Assembly (NCBI GenBank): GCA_965223735.1
Contig: OZ245010.1
Location: 276,924-340,923, forward strand
DNA length: 64,000 nucleotides
Direction: 5' to 3'
From: Candidatus Oxydemutatoraceae bacterium
GTDB lineage: Bacteria; Pseudomonadota; Gammaproteobacteria; Poriferisulfidales; Oxydemutatoraceae
This document shows, piece by piece, positions 5,817 through 52,832 of the stretch (positions within the stretch are counted from its first letter, which is position 1; every line of letters begins with the position of its first letter). The position numbers and the translations under genes were made by a program. The notes under the pieces are model-generated. The model saw only the letters and a program-made list of their open reading frames with translations, did no database searches and had not been told where the DNA came from.

Positions 5817-5891
5817 TGGAGCGGGAAACGGGGTTCGAACCCGCGACCCCAACCTTGGCAAGGTTGTGCTCTACCACTGAGCTATTCCCGC
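5817..5891 (-). tRNA. tRNA-Gly (anticodon GCC)
   Basis: The reverse complement reads GCGGGAATAGCTCAGTGGTAGAGCACAACCTTGCCAAGGTTGGGGTCGCGGGTTCGAACCCCGTTTCCCGCTCCA. It has a cloverleaf with anticodon loop CTTGCCAAG and an encoded CCA end. Confidence 0.93.
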
Positions 5892-5989
5892 ACACGAGCG
5901 TTGAATTGTAGGTGGTCGGCGTCGGCTGTCAATACGGCTTGTGTCCGGTCGCATAAAAGCGGTGGGAACGGCTATACTTCGCGCGCGAG

Positions 5990-6063
5990 GGCTAGTTGGC
6001 AGAGTGGTGATGCAGCGGCCTGCAAAGCCGTGTACACCGGTTCGATTCCGGTACTAGCCTCCA
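5990..6063 (+). tRNA. tRNA-Cys (anticodon GCA)
   Basis: GGCTAGTTGGCAGAGTGGTGATGCAGCGGCCTGCAAAGCCGTGTACACCGGTTCGATTCCGGTACTAGCCTCCA. The acceptor stem is GGCTAGT/ACTAGCC, the anticodon loop CTGCAAA and the T-arm GGTTCGATTCC. Confidence 0.9.
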
Positions 6064-6148
6064 CCTTTCAGCGTCACGCGGGAGTGATCGGGGGTGCCCC
6101 AGCACCCGATAGAATCACAACGTGGGAACGTCTCAAGCGAGTTGCAAG

Positions 6149-6154
6149 TATAAT
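6149..6154 (+). promoter_or_regulatory. Candidate -10 hexamer (TATAAT) 21 nt upstream of tRNA-Leu
   Basis: A perfect TATAAT lies at 6149-6154. No properly spaced -35 was found. Confidence 0.2.
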
Positions 6155-6175
6155 CACGGGCGCAGAGTGCGCTTT

Positions 6176-6263
6176 GCCCGGGTGGCGGAATTGGTAGACG
6201 CAAGGGACTTAAAATCCCTTGGGCTTTTTGCCCGTGCCGGTTCGAGTCCGGCTCCGGGTACCA
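6176..6263 (+). tRNA. tRNA-Leu (anticodon UAA), long variable arm
   Basis: GCCCGGGTGGCGGAATTGGTAGACGCAAGGGACTTAAAATCCC...GGTTCGAGTCCGGCTCCGGGTACCA. It is 88 nt with anticodon loop CTTAAAA and closely resembles enterobacterial leuZ. Confidence 0.92.
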
Positions 6264-7185: not shown

Positions 7186-7998
7186 TTGTCGATGGCTGAT
7201 ACCGCCACAATCCGCACCGCCTGGTCGGATCTCGACCCGACAGTGCGTCTGCTGATTGCCGCGGTCATCGCCGCGCTCGCGGCGTGTGGCTGGGCCTACA
7301 TGATTTATATGACGTGGGCAATGGGGCACATGCACTTGGTGGATATGTGGATGCCGCCGCAGTCGGGCGCGAGAGCGTGGACGGCTTACGACTTTACCAT
7401 GCTGTTTGTAATGTGGCTGGTGATGATGGTCGCGATGATGTTGCCGTCGGCGACGCCGCTCGCAATGTTGTTTGCGCAGGTGCAGCAAAAGCGCCGGGGC
7501 AGCGAGCAGATTATCGTGCCGACTTATCTGTTGCTTGCAGGTTACATCGGCGCGTGTGGCGTTTTCAGTGTGGTGGTCACGCTGCTGCAATGGCAATTGC
7601 ATGAGCGTGCGCTGTTGAACCCGATGATGGACAGTCGCAGTTATCTGCTGAGTGGTGTCGTATTGCTGATTGCCGGCGTGTACCAATGGACGCCGTGGAA
7701 AGACGTATGTCTGCGCTATTGCCGCACGCCGATGAGTTTTCTACTCGGTTCGTGGCGCGACGGCGCCGACGGTGCATTCGTGATGGGGCTGCACCACGGC
7801 ACCTACTGCGTCCTGTGTTGCTGGGGGTTGATGCTGGTGATGTTCGCTGTGGGCGTGATGAATATGCTCTGGATGGTGGTGATCACGCTGTTTATTTTGC
7901 TCGAAAAAACCGTTCTGCCGCCGCGTATCGGTTCGATTTCCGTCGGCACCTTGCTGTTGTTGTGGGGCGGGTCGTGGTTGTCGCTGTATCCGTGGTAG
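7186..7998 (+). CDS. DUF2182 family predicted metal-binding integral membrane protein
   Basis: 270 aa, polytopic and His/Met/Trp-rich (WAMGHMHLVDMWMP...), with the typical DUF2182 architecture, paired with DUF1326. Confidence 0.75.
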   Translation: MSMADTATIRTAWSDLDPTVRLLIAAVIAALAACGWAYMIYMTWAMGHMHLVDMWMPPQSGARAWTAYDFTMLFVMWLVMMVAMMLPSATPLAMLFAQVQQKRRGSEQIIVPTYLLLAGYIGACGVFSVVVTLLQWQLHERALLNPMMDSRSYLLSGVVLLIAGVYQWTPWKDVCLRYCRTPMSFLLGSWRDGADGAFVMGLHHGTYCVLCCWGLMLVMFAVGVMNMLWMVVITLFILLEKTVLPPRIGSISVGTLLLLWGGSWLSLYPW

Positions 7999-8256
7999 AT
8001 TGTTAGAAGTTGTTAAAGGGAATGTGAGGATGAGGTATTGCAGGGATGCAGGGATAATGGCCGGAAAGGCGGAGACCGCCCGAAAGGTGGCTTTTTCTAC
8101 AAAATGACAGGCAAACCCACTGAACATATCATCGGAGTGGATCGAGGGAAATTCAAGAGGAAGGAACGGCTGCTTACGTGCATTTGTTGCTGTGACGTTG
8201 AGGTTCTTCCTGGACGGCGCCGGTTAAGCGGGGATGATTCTTGAAGAGAAAGGCCG

Positions 8257-9141
8257 ATGAAAATCCTTATCAATTATGCGACTCCAAACTTCGCTACCGT
8301 CCGCAAGTTGAACAGCGCGACGGGGCTTTCGGCAGGCGAGTTTGAAAAAGTCATTGAATATTCGCCGGATGACCTTGACGAGGCTTTTCGGCAATCAAAT
8401 GAATCTATTCTGAACATGGCAAGAGGGGCAGGCTGTTGGCTCTGGAAGCCTTATATCATCAAGGAATCCCTGAGAAGCATGAAAGCCGATGACTTTTTGT
8501 TTTATGCTGACGCAGGCAGTGTTTTCACCGGCCCCGTCGAGCCGCTAATCAGAGTGATGCAACAAACGGATCAGAGCGTGATTGCTTTCAGGAGCAATCA
8601 GATCGAACATGTACGAACGAAAAGAGATGCGTTCATTTTGATGAGGTGCGATACGGTTGAGTATGCCGATACGTATCAAGTGGAAGCCGGTTTTTCCTTG
8701 TGGAGGAAAACGGCATTCAGCATGAGATTGGTCAACGAGTGGCTATCCTACGTTCAGGACGAGAGGGTCATTACTGACATGCCTAATCAATGCGGCAAGG
8801 GAAATTATCCGGGATTCAAGGAGCACCGGTACGACCAGAGTATATGGAGTCTCTTATGCAAAAAACATCAGGTGTTGATCCATAGAAGAATTTACACATA
8901 CAAAATACAAAGCAGGGGTTTACATCACGGTGATGAAGATCCGAATTCCACATCCCCCTGCTTTGTTTTTGTTCATAGAAACAATTTAAAAGAGGTACTT
9001 AGATTTTACCTGACCGCCCCATTGAAGTTCCGTTTAAAATTTCCGGTTTTCAAGGACATAATTTTCGATCCGAGGTTTGTGCTGGTTAAAGAGTTCGTTA
9101 AACAGTTGCTTGTGAAGGTGGCGCCGCGGATTTTTCTGTAA
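8257..9141 (+). CDS. Hypothetical protein, possibly a nucleotide-sugar transferase-like enzyme; lies in a lower-GC segment
   Basis: A 294-aa ORF with an AT-rich codon composition that contrasts with its flanks. No secure family assignment was possible by eye. The motif FLFYADAGSVF is a possible DxD-like site. Confidence 0.5.
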   Translation: MKILINYATPNFATVRKLNSATGLSAGEFEKVIEYSPDDLDEAFRQSNESILNMARGAGCWLWKPYIIKESLRSMKADDFLFYADAGSVFTGPVEPLIRVMQQTDQSVIAFRSNQIEHVRTKRDAFILMRCDTVEYADTYQVEAGFSLWRKTAFSMRLVNEWLSYVQDERVITDMPNQCGKGNYPGFKEHRYDQSIWSLLCKKHQVLIHRRIYTYKIQSRGLHHGDEDPNSTSPCFVFVHRNNLKEVLRFYLTAPLKFRLKFPVFKDIIFDPRFVLVKEFVKQLLVKVAPRIFL

Positions 9142-9244
9142 AACGGAAGAATGCCTCTTGGGTTAGGGAACCGAAGCTTTTATAAGAGGCTGTAAAAACA
9201 ACGGTGAAAGCTTCGCCGGTCGTCTTAAACCGGTCGTCTTGAAA

Positions 9245-9602
9245 TGGTGGAGGCGGCGGGAATCGAACCCGCGTCCGCAAATTTTCCGCCTTCGGCACTA
9301 CATGCTTAGTCTCGCGCTTAATTTGACCTGCCGTGCCCGGCGAGACGGGGCAGACCGGCAGGCGGTCCCGCTAGAAGTCTGACAGATCGTTCGCGGGCAC
9401 TCCGATCCGTGAGCCTGTAAGTATGACCCTCGTTACGCAGTCACAGGCACCTGTCGTGCGAGGGGCGTGGCCGGTTTTTTAGGCCGCCAGTGCGTAGTTG
9501 TCTTCGTTGGCAACTATTGGTTTGCAGTTTGTTTTACGAGTACACCGCAAACTCGGCATGCACCTCAGGGTTCGCAATCCACGTCGAAGCCGGATCGCCC
9601 CC
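9245..9602 (-). ncRNA. ssrA: tmRNA (SsrA), ~358 nt
   Basis: On the reverse strand the 5' end is GGGGGCGATCCGGCTTCGACGTGGATTGCGAACCC... and the 3' tRNA-like end is ...GCGGGTTCGATTCCCGCCGCCTCCACCA. The internal tag reading frame is GCC AAC GAA GAC AAC TAC GCA CTG GCG GCC TAA ([10 protein letters not shown]), preceded by the resume signal CAAUAGUU. Confidence 0.92.
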
Positions 9603-9645
9603 GGAATGTGAGGCGGAACTCTACCATACCGGGGGTTTTTTGGCT

Positions 9646-12600
9646 ATGATAGCCGCCTTGATGCAGGTTTTTTTCGGTCCCCAGGCTCATTCAGAATCCG
9701 ACCGTCAGCGGTTGCTTCGGCGGATACGCGCGAATGGCGCGTCGGCCGAGACTCTCCACGCCTGCCTGCTATATTGTCTCGACATTGAAACCGCGCTCGA
9801 CGAAGCGGATACCGCAAAGCTTCGTTTCCTGCTCGGTTGCATCGACGAAGTCGCTCCCGCTGAAGGCATGCAGTTGCGCGTGTTGCCGAGAGTCGGCACG
9901 ATTTCGCCGTGGTCAAGCAAGGCGACCGATATTCTGCGTATTGCTGGCCTTTTGAATGTCAGGCGGATTGAGTGCGGGCGGCACTATACCCTCGAAGGCG
10001 GGCCTCTGAGCGATGAGCAACGCGCCGCTGTCGCCGATTTGCTCAGCGACCGCATGACCGAGCAGGTCTGCGGCGTCAGCGATGACGATATCGCCGCGCT
10101 GTTTGCCGCGCCTGCGCCGCGCCCGCTCGAAGAAATCGCCCTCGGTTCCGCGCCCGTGAGCGCGCTGGCTGACGCCGGTCGCAGGTTCGGCCTCGCCCTG
10201 TCCGACGATGAGATTGATTACCTCGCCGGGCATTACCGGCGCCTTGCCCGCTCGCCGACCGACGCCGAGTTGATGATGTTCGCCCAGGTCAACTCGGAAC
10301 ATTGCCGACATAAAATTTTCAACGCCACGTGGACGCTCGACAGGCGCAGGCAGGACGCAAGTCTGTTTGACATGGTGCGTCATACGAGCATGTGCGCGCC
10401 AGCGGGCGTGCTGGTTGCCTACGACGACAATTCGGCTGTGATTGAAGGCGCGCGGGGGGTGCGCTGGCAGGCCGACCCGGCGACGCGCCGGTACGGTTAC
10501 GTCGCCGAACCATTGCCGATCCTGATGAAAGTGGAAACCCACAACCACCCGACGGCAATCTCGCCTTTTCCGGGCGCGGCGACCGGTTCGGGCGGCGAGA
10601 TCCGCGACGAAGTCGCGACCGGCCGCGGCGGGCGTCCGAAAGCCGGGTTGTGCGGTTTCAGCGTATCGGATCTGCGTCTGCCGGATGCCCCGCGCGCCTG
10701 GGAGGCGGCTGAAAGCAGGCCGCCGTGGATCGCGTCGCCTTTGCAGATCATGCTCGAGGCGCCGATCGGTGCGGCGACATTCAACAACGAATTCGGCCGT
10801 CCCTGTCTCGCCGGCTACTTCAGGACTTTGGAATGCCGCAGCGATGGGATACGGCGCGGGTACCACAAGCCGATCATGGTCGCCGGCGGTTTCGGCAATC
10901 TGCGCCGCGTTCACGTGAATAAGCGGAAGTTTCCACCGCACACGCCGATCGTCGTGCTCGGCGGCCCGGCGATGCTGATCGGTCTCAGGGGCGGTACCGC
11001 GTCCTCGCGGGGCGGTGGTGATTGCGGCGAGGCGCTTGACTTTGCTTCAGTGCAGCGTGGCAACGCCGAAATGCAGCGTCGCTGCCAGGAAGTGATCGAG
11101 CAAAGTACGGCGCTGGGGGAACATAACCCGATCCTCGCGATCCACGACGTCGGTGCAGGAGGGCTGTCCAACGCGGTGCCGGAATTGATCGCCGGAGCGG
11201 GTGTTGGCGGGCGCTTTGAATTACGTGATATTCCTAGCGCCGACAAAGGAATGTCGCCGATGGAGATCTGGTGCAATGAGGCGCAGGAGCGATATGTCGC
11301 GGCGGTGGCAGCCTTGGATCGTTTCATTGCGATCTGCGGGCGCGAGCGCTGTCCCGTGGCGGTGATCGGTATGGCAACCGAAGGCGACCGGCTCGAATTG
11401 CAAGACCGTCTGTTCGGCGCTGAGGTGATCTCAATCGCTCTGCCGACATTGCTTGGAGAAGTTCCGAAAGTTCATAAGGATATAGCTATAACTTCTTGTG
11501 ATAAAAAGACTATTGACACCCATGGCATCACGGTGGAGACCGCCCTCGAGCGCGTGCTCGCTTTGCCGGCGGTCGGCTCAAAGTCGTTTTTGATCACCAT
11601 CGGCGACCGCACCGTCGGTGGTCTCGCGGTGCGCGACCAGATGGTCGGTCCCTGGCAGGTGCCGGTCGCGGATTGTGCAGTCTGTGCGGCGGATTTCGTG
11701 CATTACGCGGGCGAGGCGATGGCGATGGGGGAGCGTGCGCCGCCGGCGGTGTTTGACGCGCCCGCGTCAGGTCGTCTCGCAGTTGCGGAAGCGGTGACCA
11801 ACCTGCTGGCCGCCGACGTGCGCACGCTGTCCGATATCCGCCTGTCGGCGAACTGGATGGCGGCTTGTGGCGACGCCGGGGATGACCTCGCTTTGTTCCG
11901 TACGGTGCAGGCTGTCGCCGGGGAGCTGTGCCCCGCGCTCGGCATCGCGATCCCGGTCGGCAAGGATTCGTTGTCGATGCAGACCGTCTGGCGGGCTGAG
12001 GAGCAAGCGGCGGGGCAGGATGGCAACGTTCGGGAGGAACGGGTCAGGGCGCCGTTGTCGCTGATCGTGTCGGCGTTTGCCCCGGTCGGCGACGTGCGCC
12101 GTACCTGGACACCGCAGTTGACGCCGCGCGGAGACTGCCCTTTGTTCCTGTTCAACCTGTCTGGCGGAAAGCGGCGGCTCGGTGGCTCGGCGTTGGCGCA
12201 GGTCTTCAACCTCGACGGTGGCCCCTGTGCCGATCTTGACGATCCGGTGCGCCTCAAACGCTTCTCTGAGCTGCTTGCGGCCCTGCGGGAAAAGGAGGCG
12301 GTGCTTGCGTACCACGACTGCTCGGACGGCGGGCTTTTTGTGACCTTGTGCGAAATGGCGTTTGCCGGTCACTGCGGACTTGAAGTCACGCTCGACGCGC
12401 TCGGCGGCGAGGCCTTGTCGGCGCTGTTCACCGAAGAGCCCGGCGCGGTGTTGCAGGTTGCTCCTGGAGCGGCGGATACGATGACGGCGCTGGCTGAGCA
12501 GTACGGTCTCGGCGACGTCTGTTTTCCGCTCGGTCGTGCGGACGGCGGCAAAGTCGTTCGTATCAGCCGGGGGGATCAGGTCTGGCGCTGGGACCTGATG

Positions 12601-13603: not shown

Positions 13604-14560
13604 ATGCTGATCAGAACACGCCCGTTGTCGCAACCCGCCGCTTCCGAGATCACGCCCGAAGCCGTTTACCGCTCGCGCCGGCGATTCATCAGGCAGGCGA
13701 CCGGCTTCGCCGCGGGCGGTCTGCTCGCGGGCGGCGCGAACGCCGCGCTGACGGTGGGCATGGGAGACCTGCCCGACAGCCGCTATAACACCGACGAGGA
13801 ACTCACTCCGTACAAGGATGTCACGACCTACAACAATTTCTATGAACTCGGCAGCCGCAAGAGCGATCCGGCCAAGAACGCTCACCGGCTTGTCACCGAG
13901 CCGTGGACAGTGGAAGTCGCCGGCGAATGTGAAAAGCCCGGAAGGTTTTCAATCGAGGACTTTGTGAAGCCGCATAAACTTGAAGACCGGATCTATCGCC
14001 TGCGTTGCGTTGAAGCATGGTCGATGGTGATTCCGTGGGTCGGTTTTGAAGTCAACGAACTGCTGGAGCGCGTACAGCCGACCTCGCGCGCGAAATACGT
14101 TGCGTTCCAGTCGATTTTGGACCCTGAAAATTTGCCCGAACAGCGCCGGAAAGGCCTTTTCAGCTCGCTCGACTGGCCGTACCGTGAAGGTCTCAGGATT
14201 GATGAGGCGATGAATCCGCTCGCGATCTTTGCCGTCGGTCTGTACGGCAAGGCGTTGCTGAACCAGAACGGCGCGCCGTTACGTCTGGTTCTGCCGTGGA
14301 AATACGGCTTCAAGAGCGGCAAGTCGATCGTCAGGATTGAACTGGTTGAGAGGCAGCCGCCGACGGCGTGGGGCAGGGCGGCGCCGAGCGAGTATGGTTT
14401 TTATTCCAACGTCAATCCGAGCGTTGACCATCCGCGCTGGTCGCAACGCCGTGAGCGCAGGATCGGGGAATTCATCAAGCGCAAGACCCTGATGTTCAAC
14501 GGCTACGAAGAGGAAGTCGCTTACCTGTATCGGGGCATGGACCTGAAAAAGAACTTCTGA
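13604..14560 (+). CDS. msrP: Protein-methionine-sulfoxide reductase catalytic subunit MsrP (YedY), molybdopterin enzyme with a Tat signal
   Basis: MLIRTRPLS...[17 protein letters not shown] is a Tat leader. The YedY core is conserved and it is followed by msrQ. The start was moved from the ORF-track 13463, which would overlap purL. Confidence 0.88.
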
Positions 14561-14576
14561 TCCGGCGGCATCCTCA

Positions 14577-15161
14577 GTGATCGTCGCCAGACCGCTTGTT
14601 CACGTTGCCTGCCTGGTTCCGCTTGCGTGGATGCTCTGGCAGGTGATCAGTGGCGGCGCCGGCGCCAACCCGATCGAATATCTCACCCGTGGCATCGGCG
14701 ACTGGGCCTTGCGCCTGCTGCTGATCACCTTGTCGGTGCGTCCGCTGGCGAGGTTGCTGAAACAGCCGCTGCTGATGCGCCACCGCCGCGCGATCGGGCT
14801 GTACGTGTTCTTTTACGCGCTGTGTCATCTGACGACTTATCTGTGGTTTGACCAGTTTTTTGACTGGGCGGAGATCGCGCGCGACATCGCAAAGCGCCCG
14901 TTCATACTCGCCGGTTTCGGTTCCTTTGTATTGCTGATCCCGCTCGCAGCCACCTCCAACCGTTTCTCGACCATCCGCTTGAAGCAGCGGTGGAAGCAAT
15001 TGCATACGCTGATTTACGTAATTGCCTGCACCTCGCTGCTGCATTACACGTGGATGGTGCGTGCTGATTTCAACAAGGCCTGGCTTTATGCTTTGATCCT
15101 CGCGCTGCTGCTGGGATATCGCCTGTGGGTTTACACGTCGCGCAGGCTGTTGCAGGCGTAG
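14577..15161 (+). CDS. msrQ: Protein-methionine-sulfoxide reductase haem-binding subunit MsrQ (YedZ)
   Basis: 194-aa membrane protein with YedZ-like helices (LRLLLITLSVRPL..., conserved His), immediately downstream of msrP. Confidence 0.85.
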   Translation: MIVARPLVHVACLVPLAWMLWQVISGGAGANPIEYLTRGIGDWALRLLLITLSVRPLARLLKQPLLMRHRRAIGLYVFFYALCHLTTYLWFDQFFDWAEIARDIAKRPFILAGFGSFVLLIPLAATSNRFSTIRLKQRWKQLHTLIYVIACTSLLHYTWMVRADFNKAWLYALILALLLGYRLWVYTSRRLLQA

Positions 15162-15427
15162 CGGTAACCAGTCATATCTTGTTTCTGGGTGTATGTAATC
15201 TGCAAGGAAGTTCGCAGAAAACGCAAGGAAAAAATTAAACTTTTGCACGCGGCATCCGTGCCCGGATAAAGACTCTTGCATCGAGGATCATACGTGCTGT
15301 TCTCGGCCGCTGACTTCCATGTCACCTGTCCGAACCCCTTTATTAACTGCAATAAGCGGGTTTATGCACAACGCAGCAAAATGGAGACTATTCACGCTGA
15401 GCAGAGGCAACAAGGAATTAAGTAGTT

Positions 15428-15685
15428 TCAGTTTTTAGCGAGTTTATTCAGAAGGTTTTCATACTTATATATGAATTCTGGATCTCTTTCGCCTTTTTGA
15501 TAAAAGACGAATGAGGGATATCCGTCGGCGGGCATAAGTCTCAGTTCAGATCTGATGCGTTTTATTGTCCCTCTATCTATGTCATCACCGTCATTTCTTA
15601 CGTTTATTTGTGTTTTTCTATGATCTCTTTTTATATTCCAAGCGTTACCGTAGGCTTCCAAATGAGTTACCTCTTTAGTGTTCAC
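15428..15685 (-). CDS. Hypothetical small protein (85 aa) in an AT-rich islet
   Basis: Intact ORF, MNTKEVTHLEAYGNAWNIKRDHRKTQINV...FVFYQKGERDPEFIYKYENLLNKLAKN. Its AT-rich codon usage is foreign to its neighbours. No family was recognised. Confidence 0.45.
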   Translation of the reverse strand: MNTKEVTHLEAYGNAWNIKRDHRKTQINVRNDGDDIDRGTIKRIRSELRLMPADGYPSFVFYQKGERDPEFIYKYENLLNKLAKN

Positions 15686-15727
15686 TTGACTTGTCCAACT
15701 CCAGGAAGTTCGCTTTGGTAGTGTGGT

Positions 15728-15994
15728 TTAGGTTCTTCGGGGGAAGGCAGAGGACTTTTTCTCGTGCCCGTGAGTTTTTTTCTCGGCTGTGTTTAGTGAT
15801 TCATTGTTTTTCTTCCTTTTTTTAAGCGTTGAGCAAATATCATCCCGGATTTCAGGCTCAAGAAGGTCATTTTCCTTAATATTGACTCCGATCTCATAGC
15901 ACGCTTTGATAACTTCTTGAGTGTCAATCTGCAACAGCTCGGCTATCTGCCAAGGCCTTCTGTTGGATCTGTTTTTTTGCATCTGTGTTTGCAT
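15728..15994 (-). CDS. Hypothetical small basic protein (88 aa) whose central segment resembles the IF2 N-terminal-domain helix-turn-helix fold
   Basis: MQTQMQKNRSNRRPWQIAELLQIDTQEVIKACYEIGVNIKENDLLEPEI... followed by a Lys-rich tail. It is co-directional with and 42 nt upstream of the 85-aa ORF. Confidence 0.45.
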   Translation of the reverse strand: MQTQMQKNRSNRRPWQIAELLQIDTQEVIKACYEIGVNIKENDLLEPEIRDDICSTLKKRKKNNESLNTAEKKTHGHEKKSSAFPRRT

Positions 15995-16177
15995 AGAGTT
16001 GATTTATTAAAACAAATAAGCTTCTCTGAATACAGTAATACCAAAGTCAGGTTCTCTCTTAATTGTAAAAAACCTTCATGTTAAAGAGATTTTAGCGGAA
16101 TTTAATATTGCCTCTTTCCCATAAGATAATGCTACAATATACAATTGTCATTTGGTAAAAACAACAAAAGATGAAAG

Positions 16178-17428
16178 ATGTTTTCCGACGACATGACAAT
16201 CGCAGGTTTTGATCCAGACCTGGCCGAAGCCATTGAGGCTGAAAGAAAGCGCCAGGAAGAACATATCGAGCTGATCGCTTCCGAAAACTACGCAAGCCCG
16301 CGGGTGCTCGAAGCCCAGGGATCGATGTTGACCAACAAATACGCCGAAGGTTATCCGGCGAAGCGTTATTACGGCGGCTGCGAGAATGTGGACGTCGCGG
16401 AACAGTTGGCGATCGACCGCCTCAGACAGTTGTACGGTGCCGACTACGCCAACGTGCAGCCTCACTCCGGGTCGCAGGCGAACGCCGCGGTGTACCTTGC
16501 GCTGTGCTCGCCCGGCGACACGATCATGGGCATGAGCCTCGCGCACGGCGGGCATTTGACGCACGGCGCGACGGTCAACTTCTCCGGGAAGATCTTCAAT
16601 GCGGTGCAGTACGGCATCGACGACGACGGCCTGATTGATTATGACGAGATGGAAGCGCAGGCGGTTGAGCACGAGCCGAAGATGCTGATCGGCGGCTTTT
16701 CCGCCTACTCACAGATCGTCGATTGGGAACGGATGCGCGAAATTGCCGACAAGGTCGGCGCCTACCTGGTGGTGGACATGGCGCACGTGTCGGGGCTGGT
16801 CGCGACCGGCGAATACCCAAATCCAGTGCCGTTCGCCGACGCGGTCACTTCGACGACGCATAAGAGCCTGCGCGGCCCGCGCGGCGGCTTCATCGTCGCC
16901 AGGGCAAACGACGAGATTACCAAAAAGTTCAATTCAATGGTGTTTCCCGGCACTCAGGGCGGGCCGCTGATGCACGTGATCGCAGCTAAGGCGGTGGCGT
17001 TTTACGAGGCATTGCAGCCCGAGTTCAGGGACTACATCCGCCAAGTGAAGAGCAACGCCAAGGTGATGGCGGAGACTTTGATCAAACGCGGTTACGAAGT
17101 GGTGTCGGGCGGCACCGAGAATCACTTGATGCTGGTCAGCCTGATCTCAAAGGGCATGACCGGCAAGGATGCTGACGCCGCGCTCGGCAGGGCGAACATC
17201 ACGGTGAATAAGAACAGCGTTCCGAATGACCCGGAGTCGCCGTTCGTGACCAGCGGCCTGCGCTTCGGAACCCCGGCAATCACCACGCGCGGATTCGGCA
17301 ACGGTGAGACCGAGTACCTGACCCACCTGATCTGCGACGTGCTCGATAACATGGACGACGAGCAAAATATCGGGCAGGTTGCCGGAAAAGTGAAGGAATT
17401 GTGCCGGAAGTTCCCCGTGTATCAGTAA
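16178..17428 (+). CDS. glyA: Serine hydroxymethyltransferase (GlyA)
   Basis: 416 aa with [43 protein letters not shown] and the PLP-lysine region [12 protein letters not shown]. Confidence 0.95.
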
Positions 17429-17455
17429 GCCGGGAAGGTGCAAGGGAGGCTTCCG

Positions 17456-18004
17456 ATGCAGTGCCCAGGTTGTGGTTCCCTGAAGAGTTCAGTTCTGGAC
17501 TCGCGCTATAAGCCACACATCAAGCAGAAGCGTCGCCGTCGCAAATGTAGGCAATGCGATAGGGAGTTTACGACCTTCGAGAAGGTGTCGAACACCCCGG
17601 GGCAATTGCCAAGGGTAATCAAGCGCGACGGGCGGCGTGAACCTTTTAATCGGGGCAAGCTCAGCAGAGGCGTGTTGCTGGCGGTCGCCAAACGTCCGAT
17701 CAGTACCGAAAGAGTGGACGATCTGGTCGATCAGGTTGCCGAGCGTCTGGCGAGTACCGGCAACAAGGAAGTGGAAGCCGAGAGCGTCGGTGAAGTCGTG
17801 ATGCAGGAACTCGGGCGGCTCGACCGCGTTGCCTATATTCGCTTTGCCTCGGTGTACCGAAACTTCAAGGACGCGGGCGCATTCAGGGAGGAGGCTGAAA
17901 CCGTAGAAAGATCGGCGCGCTCCCGCGTGTTCGATACGCAAAGGGATTTTGCTTTTGTCGAGGGCGGCCGGGTAAACGGTTCCGGCCAAGACGATGAGTC
18001 GTGA
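17456..18004 (+). CDS. nrdR: Transcriptional repressor NrdR (zinc ribbon plus ATP-cone)
   Basis: MQCPGCGSLKSSVLDSRYK...RRRKCRQCDREFTTFE is the zinc ribbon, and the ATP-cone carries VAYIRFASVYRNF. GGGAGG lies 6 nt upstream of the ATG at 17456. It has a C-terminal extension of about 25 aa relative to E. coli. Confidence 0.88.
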   Translation: MQCPGCGSLKSSVLDSRYKPHIKQKRRRRKCRQCDREFTTFEKVSNTPGQLPRVIKRDGRREPFNRGKLSRGVLLAVAKRPISTERVDDLVDQVAERLASTGNKEVEAESVGEVVMQELGRLDRVAYIRFASVYRNFKDAGAFREEAETVERSARSRVFDTQRDFAFVEGGRVNGSGQDDES

Positions 18005-47407: not shown

Positions 47408-48125
47408 GCCGTTCAGAGTCGTCATTCCCGCGCGCCACGATTCGACGAGACTTCCGGGCAAGCCCCTGCGCATGATCGGCGCCAGACCGCTGATCCGCCA
47501 CGTTTATGACAACGCCTGCCGCAGTGGCGCGGAGCAGGTCGTCGTCGCGACCGACAGCGAAAAAGTCGCAGAGTGTATTCGAGGCGCAGGCGGCAAAGTG
47601 CAGATGACCTCGCCCGATTGCCGCTCGGGTAGCGACCGCATAGCCGAAGCTGTCGCTGCAATGCAGTGGCCGAAAGAGGCTATCGTTGTGAATATTCAGG
47701 GAGACGAACTGTTTCTCGCGCCGGCGGACGTTTGTACCGTAGCCGAGGCGCTGGTGCGTTTTCCGCAGGCGGCGATGGCGACTTTGTCGGCGCTGCTCGC
47801 GCCGGAACATCTCGATGACCCCAGCGTCGTTAAGGTGACGACCGACGATCGGGGTATGGCACTGCATTTCAGCCGCGCCCCGATCGTGAATGGCGACCGG
47901 CGCCATATCGGCATTTATGCCTACCGCTGCAGTTACCTTCAGCGTTTCACGCGGTTACCGGCGCCGGGCATTGAACGCAGGGAACGGCTTGAGCAGTTGC
48001 GCGCGCTGTTTCACGGCGATCTGATCCGCGTTGACGAAGCCGTGTCCGACGTCGTGCTGAGTATCGACACCGAGGACGACCTGCGCGCGGCGCAGAAATT
48101 ACTCAGCGGTGAAAACCCCGTATAA
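47382..48125 (+). CDS. kdsB: 3-deoxy-manno-octulosonate cytidylyltransferase (CMP-Kdo synthetase) KdsB
   Basis: [17 protein letters not shown]...VNIQGDE is colinear with E. coli KdsB. Confidence 0.9.
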
Positions 48126-48140
48126 AGGTCTGGTTCAACG

Positions 48141-49403
48141 ATGAAAAAGAGAAAAAAACAACCCCGCGCATTCAGATCTGTTTTGTTGGCGGTCTCGGCA
48201 ATTCTGTCGATGGCCCTGGCGGGCATTTATACCTCCTGGCGCTCCCAGGCCACTGCTGTTTCATACGAACTGAGCGATGAAAAAACAGTGCGATCCTGGA
48301 CGATCTCTGAAAAGACACCGCGCTACATTACACCCGACGGGCTGAAAATAGCCGCGCAAGAAAAAACCTTTCTGATAAGTCCCGAAGTGCGGGGAACGAA
48401 AGGCGCCGCTCTATATTGGGGCAATTTCCCCTACGTCAAACTGCACCTCACCCCGCAGGCGGAGGAATACCTAATGTATTTGGTATGGATACTTGATAAA
48501 AACAGGAACAAACAATACGTTCGTTCCTTCACGGTGCCGGCGATGGCCGCCGAGGTATTGATTGACGTCCGGCAACACGAGCCGACAAAAGGTCAGTTCG
48601 GATATCCCTGGGATTTCCCGCCGCTTGAAAAAATACCCATCGGGCGCGTCGGGTTGGTATTCGGAAACACCATTGAAATCAGGCGGATCGAATTGCTTTC
48701 CAGCCTCGGGCTGTTTCAATTCGCAAAACTGTTGGGAATTCAGTACTGGCAACCCGAGCCGATAGGAGCGTATTCCATCAACAATTACTACGGCAACGAA
48801 ATATTCGGAACGCCGCTGGTTGCCGCATCGGGAATTGTTTTTTTCATTTTCCTCATGCTGTTTATATGGTTGCAGAGGAAACCCAAAAGCAAATTCAGAT
48901 TGCCGTTGTTATGGGCGATGTTTGCTTGCTTCGCGATATGCAATCTGCCGTTCGTGCATACATTATGGGAGGAGGCCAAGGCGGGTACCGAAGTTTCCGC
49001 CTGGCACGCTGACCGCTACGACGAATATCGCTCGCGCTTTAATTCGGAATTTGCCGACCTGGACCGGGCCTTTCGCACCCACGTGCCCGCCGGGTCGCGC
49101 GTGGCGTTTCCTCTTTCAGAGAAAAAGCTGGTCAATGGGGAGATTAACTGGATATGGTTTTTGTACTTCGGGCCGTATGTCAACTACACCAACCGGGATT
49201 ATTATTCTTCCACGGGGAAACAGCGTTCCGGCATAACCAAAAAGACCGAATACGTTTTCTATTATTACCCCAGAAAATTAATTTACAACGAACAGAACAA
49301 TACCCTGCGCGAAGCTGATTACCCGCAGGCTCCCCCATACAGAACGCGGACGGTTGCCGATATATCAGAGCACGCCAAGATCCTGAAGATCATCCGTGAC
49401 TAG
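48141..49403 (+). CDS. Hypothetical membrane protein (N-terminal anchor, large Tyr/Trp-rich extracytoplasmic domain, internal TM pair), first gene of a lower-GC island
   Basis: A 420-aa ORF with no family recognised by eye. Its start is 15 nt after the kdsB stop. The codon composition is AT-richer than the flanking LPS genes. Confidence 0.55.
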   Translation: MKKRKKQPRAFRSVLLAVSAILSMALAGIYTSWRSQATAVSYELSDEKTVRSWTISEKTPRYITPDGLKIAAQEKTFLISPEVRGTKGAALYWGNFPYVKLHLTPQAEEYLMYLVWILDKNRNKQYVRSFTVPAMAAEVLIDVRQHEPTKGQFGYPWDFPPLEKIPIGRVGLVFGNTIEIRRIELLSSLGLFQFAKLLGIQYWQPEPIGAYSINNYYGNEIFGTPLVAASGIVFFIFLMLFIWLQRKPKSKFRLPLLWAMFACFAICNLPFVHTLWEEAKAGTEVSAWHADRYDEYRSRFNSEFADLDRAFRTHVPAGSRVAFPLSEKKLVNGEINWIWFLYFGPYVNYTNRDYYSSTGKQRSGITKKTEYVFYYYPRKLIYNEQNNTLREADYPQAPPYRTRTVADISEHAKILKIIRD

Positions 49404-50853
49404 CGTTCTCTCAATTGCCCTGTTCACGCAACTGCTGCTTGTATTAAGCGGCCTGGCAGTGTTGCAACTTGTCAACGGTCGCGAGCGCATTCAAATCTGG
49501 TGGCTGGTTCCCTACGCCTGGGGGGTGGGTTCAGTGCTGCTGTTCATCGCCGGGTACGCGCTTGTGCCGCCGGGACATCTGGCGCATGACTGGCATCTGG
49601 TCGTTGCCGGCGGCATGGCAGTGTTGATCGTCGCCGGTGCGATCGTGTATTGCTTCGGGCGGGCCGACTGTGGACAGAATGACCGGCCTTCCGCGATTTC
49701 TGTTCGCTGGTACGACCTGCCGATCATCGCGCTGATATTGGTTCAGGTCGGTCTCGTTACTTACATCTGCATGGTCAATTCAGTCATTGATTCCGACGCC
49801 ACTTCTATGCGCGGCTATATGTCCTTGGCAAAAAAGATAGGAGAAGGAATCAGGGTGTCTGAATTTTTGGGGGATGAGGCGGTAAGGCACAGCAAATATG
49901 CCTCTTTCTCGCCGCCGCTTTTACCGGCATTTATCAGGATGTTTCTCGACAGATGGCACGACAGCGTAATCACGTTGCCCTGGTTGCTCGCCTGGCTGTT
50001 CAGCGGGGGCATTGCGTATGTCACCTGCTGCAAACTGAGCCGCCATTTTACGGCGTCTCTCGTTTGCGCCTATTTGTTCCTGTCTTTACCTCTGGCGTCG
50101 ATCCACGTGTTCAGAAGCGGGTTTTTAGACCTGCTGGTGATGTATTTCTTTTGTGCCGCTACCAGCGTGCTCAGTCTTGCTTTTTTAAGAGGAGGAAAAA
50201 TAAAGCCCGCGTGGGTGGTGGTGGCGGTCATCGCGGTGGTCGGTAGCGCACTTTGCAAATCGGAAGGCAAGTTATGGGCGGTGTTGCTGGCCGTCATCGG
50301 AGTGAATTACTGTCTGCATGTCTATGGAAATATCTCGTGGAAAAAACTGATCGGCACGCAGGTGTTATTGGCGGCCGTTTTATTTCTGGTTTACCACTTT
50401 TTCCTGGGCAAGAATTTTTTCAATAGTTTTGAGGACCAGCGGCTTCAGGCCTTGGCCCCGCATTCCTTTGACAAAAAAGCCTTCGGCGCAACGCTGAGCG
50501 CTATCTACGGTTTCAGCAACTTCGGCATCTGGTGGTGGGCTTTCAGCATGGTCGGGGTCTATCTGCTGATTGCAAGAAAAGTGCCGGAGAACGCTAAAGC
50601 GGTGATTTTTTTGTATTTTTCCATGTTTTTAGCTATTATTTACTTCGCGAACTTCACTGAAAACGTCAAATACACGTTGATCGGTACCAACGTCAGCAGG
50701 TTCTCACTGCAGATCGCCGGCGTGCTGCTCCCCGTGTATTGCGCCGCAATCCTGATCTGGCTACCCTTCTCCGGGGAAAATACTGTTTTTGCGAGGCGAC
50801 GTTCGAAAAACCACAAAATGACGAACACCCGGAAAATGTATCCATCTAAATGA
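49396..50853 (+). CDS. Polytopic (>=10 TM) membrane protein, candidate GT-C-fold glycosyltransferase (ArnT/PMT-like) assigned mainly by context
   Basis: 485 aa. The hydrophobic helices are separated by short loops, and one larger loop carries DSD...RGY. The ORF overlaps the upstream and downstream ORFs by 8 and 4 nt, so it is operonic. Confidence 0.4.
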   Translation: MTSVLSIALFTQLLLVLSGLAVLQLVNGRERIQIWWLVPYAWGVGSVLLFIAGYALVPPGHLAHDWHLVVAGGMAVLIVAGAIVYCFGRADCGQNDRPSAISVRWYDLPIIALILVQVGLVTYICMVNSVIDSDATSMRGYMSLAKKIGEGIRVSEFLGDEAVRHSKYASFSPPLLPAFIRMFLDRWHDSVITLPWLLAWLFSGGIAYVTCCKLSRHFTASLVCAYLFLSLPLASIHVFRSGFLDLLVMYFFCAATSVLSLAFLRGGKIKPAWVVVAVIAVVGSALCKSEGKLWAVLLAVIGVNYCLHVYGNISWKKLIGTQVLLAAVLFLVYHFFLGKNFFNSFEDQRLQALAPHSFDKKAFGATLSAIYGFSNFGIWWWAFSMVGVYLLIARKVPENAKAVIFLYFSMFLAIIYFANFTENVKYTLIGTNVSRFSLQIAGVLLPVYCAAILIWLPFSGENTVFARRRSKNHKMTNTRKMYPSK

Positions 50854-51815
50854 ACGACCGTATCGCCATTTTACTGCCGTGTTTTAACGAAGAGGCCGCT
50901 ATCGGACAGACGATCGGCGAATTCCACGCGGCGTTGCCGAACGCCGTCATTTATGTGTTCGATAATCATTCGACCGACAGAACCCGGGAAGTCGCCGAAG
51001 CGCAAGGCGCCACTGTCTTTCAGGAGATGCATTTGGGTAAAGGGCACGTCATCCGCCGGATGTTTGCCGACGTGGAAGCGGACATTTATGTGCTGGCCGA
51101 CGGGGACGCCGCCCACGACGCTTCCGCCGCGCCCGAAATGATAGAGCGCCTGCGCGAGGAAAACCTCGACATGGTCGTCGGCGCCCGCGACTTTACGAAA
51201 ACAGGCCATCGTTTCGGGCACTTATGGGGAAATCAGATTTTCAACAAAATCGTGGGAATGCTGTTCGGCAAAAAGTTTACCGATATATTCTCCGGTTACC
51301 GTGTATTGTCGAGGAGATTGGTCAAGTCGTTTCCGGCGCTTGCCACCGGGTTTGAGATAGAAGCCGAGTTATCGATACACGTGCTTGAATTGCGATTGCC
51401 CGCGACGGAAATAAGTACCTGTGCAAGACCACGTCTTGAAGGGTCTTACAGCAAATTGAAAACCGTACGGCACGGCCTGATCATCTTGACAAGAATTGTG
51501 GGCCTGTTCATGCAGATAAAACCGTTTGTTTTTTTCGGTGTTATCACTGCGGCATTATTCATTTTGGGGTTGATCTCGGGTTATCCGGCGATTGCTGTTT
51601 TCCTGGAAACTGGATTGGTCCCTTATTTGCCCCGGGCAGTACTCGCCGCCTCTTTGATGATACTCGCCTCGTTAAGTCTGGCGTGTGGCCTGATCCTTTA
51701 TCATGTAAGTCAAGCCAGACTTGAATCCAGGCATCTGCATTACCTGAAGATGAAGAATAAGATCTTGGCCCGACAGGATCCCGGGGCAGTTTCAAGTTGG
51801 GAAATGAAAAAATGA
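50850..51815 (+). CDS. Family-2 glycosyltransferase of the polyprenyl-phosphate sugar synthase type (ArnC/GtrB/DPM1-like) with two C-terminal TM helices
   Basis: ILLPCFNEEAAIGQTI...VFDNHSTDRT...LADGDAAHD (DxD)...VVGAR. The C-terminal hydrophobic hairpin is FVFFGVITAALFILGLI / AVLAASLMILASLSLACGLILY. Confidence 0.75.
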   Translation: MNDRIAILLPCFNEEAAIGQTIGEFHAALPNAVIYVFDNHSTDRTREVAEAQGATVFQEMHLGKGHVIRRMFADVEADIYVLADGDAAHDASAAPEMIERLREENLDMVVGARDFTKTGHRFGHLWGNQIFNKIVGMLFGKKFTDIFSGYRVLSRRLVKSFPALATGFEIEAELSIHVLELRLPATEISTCARPRLEGSYSKLKTVRHGLIILTRIVGLFMQIKPFVFFGVITAALFILGLISGYPAIAVFLETGLVPYLPRAVLAASLMILASLSLACGLILYHVSQARLESRHLHYLKMKNKILARQDPGAVSSWEMKK

Positions 51816-52540
51816 ACAATTTTCAGGGAGGTGACGGTACCCGTTATTCCGGCAGAGATGAGTTGGAACACATGGAAAAGTTCATGCCGAATTACAATCG
51901 GTCGATTGTCAAAAAAATTCTCAAGAATATGAATGCCGGTTCCGCCATTCTGGAATTCGGCGCGGGGATCGGCACGCTCGCGACGATCTACAAAGATCAT
52001 ACCGGGGTCAGCCCCGTCTGCCTGGAAATTGACAATGACTTGAAAAGCGTTCTAACCGAAAGGGGGTTCAGGGTGTTTGGCGGAACAGACGAGGTCGATG
52101 AAGTGTTTGACGGGGTTTACTCGTCCAACGTGCTCGAGCATATTGAAGACGACGTCGCCGCCCTGAAGAAGATCAGGGGTCTACTGAAGCTGGGGGGGCA
52201 TCCTCTGGTTCTTTATGTTCCCGCCTTTCAATGCCTGTTTTCAGGTATGGACGAAGCGGTGGGGCATTATCGGAGATACGGAAAAAATGAACTGATTTCT
52301 AAATTAAATAACGCCAGCTATACGGTCACTAACGTACATTTTTCAGACTGCATTGGTTTCTTCACGCTGCTTTTTGTGCGTTTGTCCGGGTACAATAAGT
52401 TGTCGGGCTTGGGCAGTCCAGGAAGTTTAATCTTCTACGACAAGTTCATTTACCCGATAAGTTGCCTTTTTGATCTGCTGGGCTTTCGCTTTCTATTCGG
52501 GAAGAATCTTCTCGTCAGGGCGGTTGCAAGGAATTCATGA
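51797..52540 (+). CDS. Class I SAM-dependent methyltransferase
   Basis: ILEFGAGIGTL is the motif I glycine loop, and the acidic residue lies in VCLEIDNDL. About 245 aa, with the probable start at ATG 51812. Confidence 0.7.
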   Translation: MGNEKMNNFQGGDGTRYSGRDELEHMEKFMPNYNRSIVKKILKNMNAGSAILEFGAGIGTLATIYKDHTGVSPVCLEIDNDLKSVLTERGFRVFGGTDEVDEVFDGVYSSNVLEHIEDDVAALKKIRGLLKLGGHPLVLYVPAFQCLFSGMDEAVGHYRRYGKNELISKLNNASYTVTNVHFSDCIGFFTLLFVRLSGYNKLSGLGSPGSLIFYDKFIYPISCLFDLLGFRFLFGKNLLVRAVARNS

Positions 52541-52758
52541 CCCGCATGGAGCTTTTCGCAAGCGGGTGGTCGCCGTGCCGTGCGGTTGATCCAGCGGAAA
52601 TGAATGTTCAGGCCGAAGAAAGCGGCGGCGTGCCACTGTCCCGATTGTTGTCCGGGCAATTGCAATAGCCGGCAATGGCGCGGCGGGTTTGATGAATTGA
52701 CATCCCGCCGGCCCGTGCAATACCCGCCCGCCCGATATGCGGCGGTCGAAGCAGGCTC

Positions 52759-52787
52759 TTGAAAAACGCGCTGTTTTTGGTTAAATA
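52759..52787 (+). promoter_or_regulatory. Candidate sigma70 promoter for the ABC-2/GldG-like operon (TTGAAA - 17 bp - TAAATA)
   Basis: cTTGAAAaacgcgctgtttttggtTAAATAtgcc lies about 45 nt upstream of the ATG at 52833. Confidence 0.35.
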
Positions 52788-52832
52788 TGCCGCCGTGCCT
52801 CTTCCAGACCGGAAACTCCGACGCGCCAAACG

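What the first reader, a model, noticed from the sequence alone, without database searches (positions are those of the whole stretch)
15162..16177. AT-rich ~1-kb islet with two co-directional small ORFs wedged between msrQ and glyA
GC falls sharply between the msrQ stop (15161) and the glyA start (16178). Both flanks are conserved housekeeping genes on the + strand. The islet carries two intact minus-strand ORFs of 88 and 85 codons, separated by 42 nt, with AT-rich codon usage foreign to the genome. The upstream product has a basic N-terminus, a segment resembling the IF2 N-terminal HTH-like domain (WQIAELLQIDTQEVIKACYEIGVNI) and a Lys-rich tail. The downstream product has no recognisable family. 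The size, pairing, orientation and foreign composition fit a small acquired two-gene module. It could be a toxin-antitoxin or a nucleic-acid-binding regulator plus effector. The function cannot be assigned from sequence.
Basis: partly seen in the sequence, partly recalled or inferred. Interest (0 to 1): 0.55.

Follow-up and report, generated by a model that had tools for sequence, protein, structure and literature searches.

The report
Broken remnant of a Doc/Fic toxin gene
The two small "genes" between msrQ and glyA are the front and back ends of one foreign, AT-rich Doc/Fic-family toxin-like gene whose catalytic middle has been deleted, so this is an ordinary decaying pseudogene and not a two-gene module.

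Summary
The description is accurate. A 1016-nt gap at 40% GC lies in a 60% GC window and carries minus-strand ORFs of 88 and 85 codons, 42 nt apart. Both ORFs share one reading frame and are separated by a single TAA. An exhaustive phmmer search showed that ORF B is the C-terminal ~73 residues of 350-400-aa "death-on-curing family" (Fic/Doc) proteins. The best hit, P0005 (355 aa), also matches ORF A at its N-terminus. A related genome (PurL, MsrP and MsrQ 76-77% identical) carries intact P0005 at the same place, convergent with msrQ. It is equally AT-rich there (GC 0.415). Relative to P0005, the window copy lacks codons 114-282. That block holds the whole Fic/Doc core and every invariant catalytic residue. 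The window copy also has a +1 and a +2 frameshift, and the ORF A stop lies in the out-of-frame stretch between them. So the islet is a recently inactivated pseudogene of an anciently acquired mobile toxin-like gene. Interest is low. The intact parent family (IF2_N-like + Doc-type Fic + weakly HicA-like tail) is uncharacterised but lies outside this window.

The parts
15162..16177 (.). AT-rich intergenic islet between msrQ (stop at 15161) and glyA (ATG at 16178)
   Evidence: GC is 0.398 against 0.597 for the window
15770..15994 (-). N-terminal remnant in its original frame, about codons 1-75 of ORF A. It corresponds to P0005 residues 1 to ~75. The IF2_N-like domain is residues 16-56, i.e. 15827-15949.
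   Evidence: BLASTP of fused-frame residues 1-114 against P0005 1-113 gives 47% identity, E 2e-28. Pfam IF2_N gives E 4.5e-4. The top Foldseek hit is IF2 N-terminus 4b44.
15758..15768 (-). Approximate site of a +1-nt frameshift relative to the intact orthologue. The position is uncertain within the poorly conserved linker.
   Evidence: DNA alignment with L084 and the frame comparison
15685..15738 (-). Stretch whose ancestral frame is shifted by one base relative to ORF A. It reads EEPKPHYQSELPGVGQVK and matches P0005 KEPKLRYQSELPKIGPIV and P0067 KEPKPRYKSALPKIGSVV.
   Evidence: Three-frame translation compared with P0005 and P0067
15728..15730 (-). TAA that ends ORF A. It lies inside the out-of-frame stretch, so it is a consequence of the frameshift and not an ancestral stop.
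15687..15688 (-). +2-nt insertion that returns the reading to the ORF A / ORF B frame
   Evidence: DNA alignment with L084
15653..15685 (-). First 11 codons of ORF B (GTG-NTKEVTHLEA), corresponding to P0005 V103-A113. The GTG 'start' is the codon of a conserved internal Val.
15650..15652 (-). Deletion junction (codon TAC). P0005 codons 114-282 (507 nt) are missing. That block is the entire Fic/Doc core plus the first helix of the C-terminal domain.
   Evidence: The two BLAST blocks end at P0005 residue 113 and restart at 283. Pfam Fic covers P0005 110-198 and TIGR01550 covers 125-229.
15428..15649 (-). C-terminal domain remnant (ORF B residues 13-85 plus stop), corresponding to P0005 283-355
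   Evidence: 65% identity, E 6e-33. phmmer gives 62 hits, all at the C-termini of longer proteins. The family HMM scores 90 bits.
15380..15427 (.). 3' flank still alignable to the orthologous locus, including a relic of the ancestral msrQ 3' end at about 15380-15400
   Evidence: blastn matches L084 10847-11108 to window 15649-15388; alignment
15149..15379 (.). Lineage-specific segment of about 231 nt, of unknown origin, absent from the relative. It replaced the last ~10 codons of msrQ and gave it a new tail.
   Evidence: In L084 the two stops are 27 nt apart. There is no repeat of this segment in the window, no Rfam hit, and the fold z-score is 0.26.
15995..16177 (.). AT-rich (about 30% GC) divergent upstream region shared by the remnant and glyA. 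It contains weak sigma-70-like matches facing glyA.

Best explanation
The islet is the decayed remnant of a single, horizontally acquired, AT-rich gene of the Doc-type Fic family ('death-on-curing family toxin'). The intact form is about 355 aa. It has an N-terminal IF2_N-like domain, a Lys-rich linker, a Fic/Doc core with the motif HPFHNGNKRTA, and a conserved C-terminal domain with weak HicA-like similarity. That gene sat convergent to msrQ in the common ancestor of this organism and a relative. In this lineage it was inactivated by an in-frame 507-nt internal deletion that removed the whole catalytic core, and by a +1 and a +2 frameshift in the linker. The frameshifts created the TAA that ends 'ORF A'. 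'ORF B' is simply the open frame that resumes at an internal Val (GTG) codon. Shown here: homology of both pieces to one protein, the intact orthologue at the same locus, the deletion, and the frame shifts. Inferred: the remnant has no catalytic function; inactivation was recent; and the parent protein acts as a Doc-like kinase on a translation component, by analogy with P1 and Salmonella Doc, which phosphorylate EF-Tu.
For: (1) ORF A and ORF B share one frame, separated by one stop and 14 sense codons. (2) phmmer of ORF B against 1.84 billion representatives gave 62 hits. ORF B residues 12-84 always align to the extreme C-terminus of proteins mostly 330-450 aa long. The best is P0005, at E 8.5e-25 and 64% identity. 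(3) The fused frame aligns to P0005 in two blocks: 1-114 to 1-113 (E 2e-28) and 116-187 to 283-354 (E 6e-33). (4) P0005 and its relatives pass Pfam Fic (53 bits against a cut-off of 24) and TIGR01550 DOC_P1 (51 bits against 38.65). There are 1897 homologues, which NCBI and JGI name death-on-curing family toxin. (5) All invariant core residues (H180, F182, G185, N186, K187, R188, T189) fall inside the deleted block. (6) In L084 (a 1.94-Mb circular contig) intact P0005 lies 27 nt from the msrQ stop, convergent with it, followed by msrP, purL and tmRNA as in the window. PurL, MsrP and MsrQ are 76-77% identical between the two genomes. The gene's GC is 0.415 in a 0.62 genome. (7) The linker segment matches P0005 and P0067 only in a shifted frame, which requires a +1 and a +2 indel. 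(8) ORF B is not called as a gene in the two contig annotations examined, and ORF A is called inconsistently. (9) The islet sequence is identical in three assemblies.
Against: Both fragments are still open. Pairwise dN/dS against the intact orthologue is low (0.24 and 0.19, against 0.195 for msrQ). The remnant is no more diverged from P0067 than P0005 is. So neutral decay is not yet visible, and retention of one or both fragments for some function cannot be excluded. Only one related genome with the orthologous locus was found. The three assemblies probably derive from the same strain, and the +1 frameshift lies near A-runs that are error-prone in long reads. The 507-nt deletion cannot be such an error.
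Confidence: 0.9

Rival explanations
1. Domesticated fragments. After loss of the toxic core, one or both pieces are retained and expressed as small proteins. Examples would be the IF2_N-like N-terminal piece acting as a nucleic-acid- or ribosome-binding factor, or acting as a decoy or regulator for related Doc-type toxins.
For: Both frames remain open. dN/dS against the intact orthologue is 0.19-0.24, and there is no rate acceleration relative to P0067. The N-terminal domain is complete, and its single-sequence model is moderately confident (pLDDT 70; 78-85 across residues 11-60). ORF A is called as a gene by NCBI and ENA.
Against: Low pairwise dN/dS is expected if inactivation was recent, because most of the path was under selection. 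The last ~13 residues of ORF A are out-of-frame sequence. ORF B lacks the first helix of its domain (P0005 263-282), starts at an internal GTG with no good Shine-Dalgarno sequence (GGAG lies 14 nt upstream), and has a low-confidence model (pLDDT 56). No stand-alone family of such fragments was found.
Confidence: 0.06
2. One reading: a functional acquired two-gene module, either toxin-antitoxin or regulator plus effector, with the HTH-like ORF A as antitoxin or regulator and ORF B as toxin or effector.
For: The size, co-orientation and 42-nt spacing fit. ORF B has a weak HicA_toxin match at E 0.13. The locus has foreign composition.
Against: Both ORFs are collinear pieces of one protein, and that protein is intact in a relative. 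The HicA match is far below threshold, and the position of the HicA catalytic His is not conserved in the family, whose consensus reads GNxxNI. No PADLOC, NCBIfam or PHROG family was hit. The two ORFs were never found as separate neighbouring genes elsewhere.
Confidence: 0.02
3. Assembly or sequencing artefact: the gene is really intact, or only frameshifted by read errors.
For: The contigs come from metagenome assemblies, and one copy (L001, 2x coverage) has a 1-nt indel that splits purL. The +1 frameshift lies near A-runs.
Against: The islet is identical in the window, an ENA contig and a Logan assembly. A clean 507-nt internal deletion and a 2-nt insertion are not typical read errors.
Confidence: 0.02

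Closest known systems
Doc (death-on-curing) toxin of the phage P1 / Salmonella Phd-Doc type II TA system (Fic fold; a kinase that phosphorylates EF-Tu; PMC9207808 and its ref. 18, Cruz et al. 2014)
   Same: The parent family passes TIGR01550 DOC_P1 and Pfam Fic. It carries the Lys-containing GNKR motif and hits Doc crystal structures (9vzc at 7.7e-16; P1 Doc 3k33 at 3e-5). Family members occur in mobile or defence contexts and on prophage-like contigs.
   Different: The parent is about 355-400 aa, with an extra N-terminal IF2_N-like domain and a conserved ~95-aa C-terminal domain, whereas Doc is about 126 aa. Its motif is HxFxNGNKR, which falls in the HxxxN[A|G]NKR group of Khater & Mohanty 2015 (PMC4454073), not HxFxDGNKR. 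No conserved Phd-like partner appeared in the contexts examined. The window copy lacks the Doc core altogether.
N-terminal domain of bacterial translation initiation factor IF2 (Pfam PF04760)
   Same: ORF A residues 16-56 match the profile at E 4.5e-4. The AF2 model superposes on IF2 N-terminus 4b44 at 1.8 A over 59 columns. The family profile hits IF2 chains at about 1e-3.
   Different: The match is below Pfam's gathering score. Only 6 of 41 family members reach E<0.01. Here the domain is the N-terminal module of a Fic protein and not part of a GTPase.
HicA mRNA-interferase toxin (Pfam PF07927)
   Same: There is a weak, recurrent match of the family's C-terminal domain to HicA: P0006 at E 0.004, 4 of 41 members below 0.01, and ORF B at E 0.13.
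   Different: No member reaches the gathering score, and there is no HicA hit in the PDB with the family profile. The catalytic His position of HicA is not conserved. The domain carries a further conserved ~35-aa extension (GYDSxIFY...KYRxxLxRLAKV). In the window its first helix is deleted.
Decaying chromosomal toxin-antitoxin or mobile-element genes (pseudogenised accessory genes in AT-rich islets)
   Same: The gene has foreign composition, lies at a synteny breakpoint, and carries an internal deletion plus frameshifts, while a relative keeps the intact copy.
   Different: Nothing unusual. It is notable only that both leftover frames mimic a tidy two-gene operon.

Membership tests
Fic/Doc family (PF02661; TIGR01550 DOC_P1) | Fic core helices with the active-site motif HxFx(D/E/N)(G/A)N(G/K)Rxx(R) | tested here: not met
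   The window has no Fic hit in either ORF. A family-HMM scan of all six frames of the 64 kb finds only the N- and C-terminal pieces. The motif region, P0005 180-190, lies within deleted codons 114-282. A motif-like + strand fragment at 15249-15359 (tblastn E 0.046) scored only 2.2 bits with the family HMM and had no Pfam hit.
Fic/Doc family (PF02661; TIGR01550 DOC_P1) | Descent from a family member: homology of the flanking domains to bona fide Fic/Doc proteins, and an orthologous position | tested here: met
   The two blocks align to P0005 at E 2e-28 and 6e-33. P0005 passes both curated cut-offs. The intact orthologue lies next to msrQ in L084.
Type II toxin-antitoxin two-gene module | Two separate adjacent genes encoding an independently folding toxin and a cognate antitoxin | tested here: not met
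   The ORFs share one frame and are collinear fragments of one protein. ORF B starts at an internal Val codon and lacks part of its domain.
Type II toxin-antitoxin two-gene module | Toxicity of one product neutralised by the other | not testable with these tools
   This needs expression experiments.
HicA toxin (PF07927) | Profile match at or above the gathering score (27 bits), and a conserved catalytic His in the GSHH region | tested here: not met
   ORF B scores 12.8 bits at E 0.13. The best family member reaches 17.6 bits. The family consensus reads GNRINI where HicA has GSHH.
IF2_N domain (PF04760) | Profile match at or above the gathering score (25.3 bits) | tested here: not met
   The score is 20.4 bits at E 4.5e-4.
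IF2_N domain (PF04760) | The same small helical fold as the IF2 N-terminal domain | tested here: inconclusive
   The single-sequence AF2 model has pLDDT 70. Its top PDB matches are IF2 N-terminal domains (4b44, probability 1.00, rmsd 1.8 A, but E 0.058). The family profile hits IF2 at about 1e-3.

The most novel reading that the evidence does not exclude
The core-less remnant is not dead. After the toxic Doc-type kinase core was deleted, the complete IF2_N-like N-terminal piece (ORF A), and perhaps the C-terminal piece, is kept and expressed. It would act as a small ribosome- or nucleic-acid-binding protein, or as an 'anti-toxin by truncation' that competes with incoming Doc-type toxins of the same family. 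The open frames and the low dN/dS (0.19-0.24) do not exclude this.
Probability: 0.05. Interest if true: 0.45.

Novelty: new member of a known kind. Interest (0 to 1): 0.18.

Why it matters
For this window it matters mainly as a correction. A tidy-looking pair of small co-directional ORFs in an AT-rich islet can be the two ends of one internally deleted gene. A check for a shared reading frame and an exhaustive profile search resolve such cases where word-indexed searches and curated libraries fail. It also shows that the islet is old, shared with a relative at 76-77% housekeeping identity, and not a recent insertion. The side product is modestly interesting. The intact parent belongs to a large protein family (1897 homologues at E<=1e-5). 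The family is found in mobile elements, defence islands and prophages. Its members combine an IF2_N-like domain, a Doc-type Fic core (HxFxNGNKR) and a conserved, weakly HicA-like tail. They have no obvious conserved antitoxin partner. I found no description of this architecture in two literature searches and one Fic/Doc survey paper. It would be a reasonable target for testing whether Doc-type kinases can be directed to the translation machinery by built-in domains.

Tried and rejected
(1) Word-indexed homology searches found only a self hit for ORF A and nothing for ORF B. They missed P0005, which the exhaustive phmmer search later found.

(2) NCBIfam, PHROGs and PADLOC gave nothing significant. 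tblastn against 50,697 phage records gave only chance hits.

(3) Rfam found no RNA family in 14000-17500 at E<=1. The RNA fold of 15140-15430 is not unusual (z 0.26). Promoter and terminator scans were at background level. There are no meaningful repeats or terminal inverted repeats.

(4) The empty-site test failed. A GTDB scan with GlyA returned relatives at no more than 75% identity. None has msrQ upstream, and only glyA-nrdR-ribD is conserved. A metagenome scan with MsrQ gave at most 59% identity and no Fic neighbour.

(5) L001/L083 and L082 turned out to be the same strain (99.98-100% identical), so they give no comparative information.

(6) ORF B as a HicA toxin was rejected. The match is sub-threshold, the His position is not conserved, the domain is truncated, and the AF2 model is too poor (pLDDT 56) to justify a fold search.

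(7) An apparent inverted Fic-motif fragment on the + strand at 15249-15359 (AASVPG*...NPFINCNKR; tblastn E 0.046) would have implied an inversion. It was rejected. The family HMM gives 2.2 bits at E 8.4, ranking 13th in the window. Pfam finds nothing, and there is no DNA similarity to the L084 core.

(8) Microhomology at the deletion junction could not be determined at 73% DNA identity.

(9) The pairwise dN/dS and relative-rate checks do not discriminate between recent pseudogenisation and retained function.

Full report
**Observation.** msrQ (Ferric_reduct, 14577-15161, + strand) and glyA (SHMT, 16178-17428, + strand) flank a 1016-nt gap. GC in the gap is 0.398 against 0.597 for the whole window. 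It falls to 0.295 in the last 200 nt before glyA, and this is the lowest-GC stretch in the 64 kb. Two minus-strand ORFs lie 42 nt apart: ORF A (15728-15994, 88 aa, ATG start) and ORF B (15428-15685, 85 aa, GTG start). Their GC3 is 0.49 and 0.34, against 0.66-0.79 in the neighbouring genes. In 5000 dinucleotide-preserving shuffles of the gap, one ORF of at least 85 aa appears in 25% of cases. Two non-overlapping ORFs of that size on the same strand appear in only 0.5%. The pair is therefore more than chance.

**Curated libraries and indexed searches.**
- ORF A matches Pfam IF2_N at E 4.5e-4 (20.4 bits, cut-off 25.3, residues 16-56).
- ORF B has only a marginal HicA_toxin match at E 0.13.
- NCBIfam, PHROGs and PADLOC gave nothing significant.
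- Rfam found nothing in 14000-17500.
- Phage tblastn gave only chance hits.
- The word-indexed protein search found only ORF A itself and nothing for ORF B.
- ORF B's sequence is not in the 15-billion-protein collection at all, and it is not called as a gene in either contig annotation examined. ORF A is called by NCBI (84 aa) and ENA (88 aa) but not by Logan.
- Two other contigs carrying this locus are 99.98-100% identical. They are the same strain and add no comparative information.

**The decisive results.** Both ORFs lie in the same reading frame. A single TAA and 14 sense codons separate them, giving a 188-codon frame with one stop. An exhaustive phmmer search with ORF B against 1.84 billion cluster representatives returned 62 proteins at E<=1e-3. 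In essentially all of them, ORF B residues 12-84 align to the extreme C-terminus of a longer protein, mostly 330-450 aa. The best hit is P0005 (355 aa, E 8.5e-25, 64% identity). Its N-terminus (MQTRKHPKRSNRRPWQLAKLLDLEIQDIIKACSESGV...) also matches ORF A. BLASTP of the fused window frame against P0005 gives two collinear blocks:
- residues 1-114 to P0005 1-113 (47% identity, E 2e-28), running straight through the stop;
- residues 116-187 to P0005 283-354 (65% identity, E 6e-33).

P0005 residues 114-282 have no counterpart in the window. That block contains the Pfam Fic/DOC domain (residues 110-198, 53 bits against a cut-off of 24) and the TIGR01550 'death-on-curing family toxin' match (residues 125-229, 51 bits against 38.65). 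In a 41-member alignment, the invariant active-site residues H180, F182, G185, N186, K187, R188 and T189 (HPFHNGNKRTA) all lie in that block. A family HMM run over all six frames of the window finds only the two end pieces, at 90 bits and 17.5 bits.

**More than one lesion.** The DNA alignment with the intact gene, together with three-frame translation, shows that the linker segment reads EEPKPHYQSELPGVGQVK in a frame shifted by one base from ORF A. In that frame it matches P0005 (KEPKLRYQSELPKIGPIV) and a second homologue, P0067 (KEPKPRYKSALPKIGSVV). This requires a +1 indel near 15760 and a +2 indel at 15687-15688. The TAA that ends ORF A lies inside this out-of-frame stretch. The GTG 'start' of ORF B is the codon of a conserved internal valine (V103 of P0005). 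The deletion junction is at codon TAC (15650-15652). The deletion is in-frame: 169 codons are lost and one remains in their place.

**The orthologous locus in a relative.** P0005 is encoded on a 1.94-Mb circular metagenomic contig (L084). There it lies convergent with msrQ, with the two stop codons 27 nt apart, and is followed by msrP, purL and the tmRNA gene, exactly as in the window. PurL, MsrP and MsrQ are 76-77% identical between the two genomes. The intact gene is also AT-rich there: GC 0.415 in a 0.62 genome, with GC3 0.39. The foreign gene was therefore already next to msrQ in the common ancestor, and the window does not carry a recent insertion. On the other side the neighbours differ: hisI, yidD and cysS in L084, and glyA here. 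None of those L084 genes occurs anywhere in the window, so the gene sits at a synteny breakpoint. msrQ-glyA adjacency was not seen in any of the 80 glyA loci from GTDB genomes, where only glyA-nrdR-ribD is conserved. None of the 80 metagenomic msrQ loci (at most 59% identity) carries glyA or a Fic-family gene. The window also has about 231 nt (about 15149-15379) between msrQ and the remnant that the relative lacks. A relic of the ancestral msrQ 3' end survives at about 15380-15400, so msrQ acquired a new short tail here. That segment has no repeat, no RNA-family match and no unusual fold.

**Timing.** Pairwise dN/dS between the remnant and P0005 is 0.24 for the N-terminal part and 0.19 for the C-terminal part, similar to msrQ at 0.195. 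The remnant, P0005 and P0067 are roughly equidistant from one another. Inactivation is therefore recent relative to the divergence, which explains why both frames are still open. This same evidence leaves a small probability that a fragment is retained for a function.

**The parent family, and how the gene would have worked.** The family is large, with 1897 homologues at E<=1e-5. Where a source gives it a name (NCBI, JGI), that name is 'type II toxin-antitoxin system death-on-curing family toxin'. Its profile hits the following solved structures:
- Doc family structure 9vzc at 7.7e-16, and P1 Doc 3k33 at 3e-5;
- with its N-terminal ~65 positions, IF2 N-terminal domains at about 1e-3.

The C-terminal domain gives only weak, recurrent HicA_toxin matches (4 of 41 members below 0.01), and the position of the HicA catalytic His is not conserved. 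The motif HxFxNGNKR belongs to the HxxxN[A|G]NKR group recognised in a survey of Fic/Doc enzymes (PMC4454073). Canonical Doc is a kinase that phosphorylates EF-Tu and is inhibited by Phd (PMC9207808). By analogy, and this is inference only, the intact protein is a Doc-type kinase acting on the translation apparatus, with accessory domains that may target it. Other members sit in a defence island (type I R-M, AbiJ, Mrr), among group II introns and transposases, and on about 15 prophage-like IMG/VR contigs. No conserved small partner gene was seen. This is consistent with a mobile accessory gene.

**Rejected leads.** A tblastn fragment on the + strand (15249-15359, '...NPFINCNKR', E 0.046) looked like an inverted piece of the missing core. 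It scores only 2.2 bits with the family HMM, ranking 13th in the window. It has no Pfam match and no DNA similarity to the L084 core, so it is treated as chance. The HicA-toxin reading of ORF B fails on score, on catalytic residue and on domain completeness. The ORF B model (pLDDT 56) was too poor for a fold search.

**Verdict.** The interpretation as a two-gene module is not supported, although 'foreign' and 'toxin-related' were right in spirit. The locus is a recently inactivated pseudogene of a Doc-type Fic family gene. It carries an internal deletion of the catalytic core and two frameshifts, and an intact orthologue is present in a relative. Confidence is 0.9. This is an ordinary outcome and the interest is low (0.18). 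The most novel reading not excluded is functional retention of the core-less fragments, at a probability of about 0.05.

Noticed in passing
window 7800-9240 and tmRNA gene 9245-9602 (-): A second low-GC stretch (0.45-0.51) abuts the 3' end of the tmRNA gene, a classic island integration site. It holds a 294-aa ORF (8257-9141, +) with no Pfam match. The relative L084 also has low-GC genes (GC 0.50-0.52; L084 17365-19266) beside its tmRNA, and they are not homologous to anything in the window.
   Followed up: partly
window 48000-53700: A block of about 5 kb at about 51% GC encodes two ORFs with no Pfam match (420 and 485 aa), a family-2 glycosyltransferase, a methyltransferase and an ABC ATPase. 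It looks like a surface-polysaccharide cluster of foreign composition.
   Followed up: partly
window 15149-15400: A segment of about 231 nt, absent from the relative, interrupts the ancestral 3' end of msrQ. It gives MsrQ a new C-terminal tail (…SRRLLQA) and leaves a relic of the old end at about 15380-15400. Its origin is unknown.
   Followed up: partly
window 9490-9646 / tmRNA 9245-9602: The mechanical 'purL' ORF (from GTG at 9490, 1355 aa) overlaps the tmRNA gene. The gene call on the identical Logan contig starts about 156 nt later (1303 aa), so the true purL start is near 9646.
   Followed up: no
L001 (= window 11666 and 12114): The 2x-coverage ENA contig of the same strain has a 1-nt insertion and one substitution in purL, which split purL into two called genes. 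This is probably an assembly error, and it is a reminder that single-base frameshifts in these assemblies need read-level confirmation.
   Followed up: yes
L086 4001-5122; L087-L089 4001-5197; L170-L186: Intact members of the parent Fic/Doc family lie in a defence island (type I R-M, AbiJ_NTD4, Mrr_cat), next to group II intron reverse transcriptases and transposases, and on IMG/VR prophage-like contigs. L087 and L089 have two small ORFs (59 and 61 aa) directly upstream that could be lineage-specific partners.
   Followed up: partly
window 5817-6263: A cluster of tRNA-Gly(GCC), tRNA-Cys(GCA) and tRNA-Leu(TAA) lies upstream of DUF1326 and PpoB2 copper-chaperone genes.
   Followed up: no
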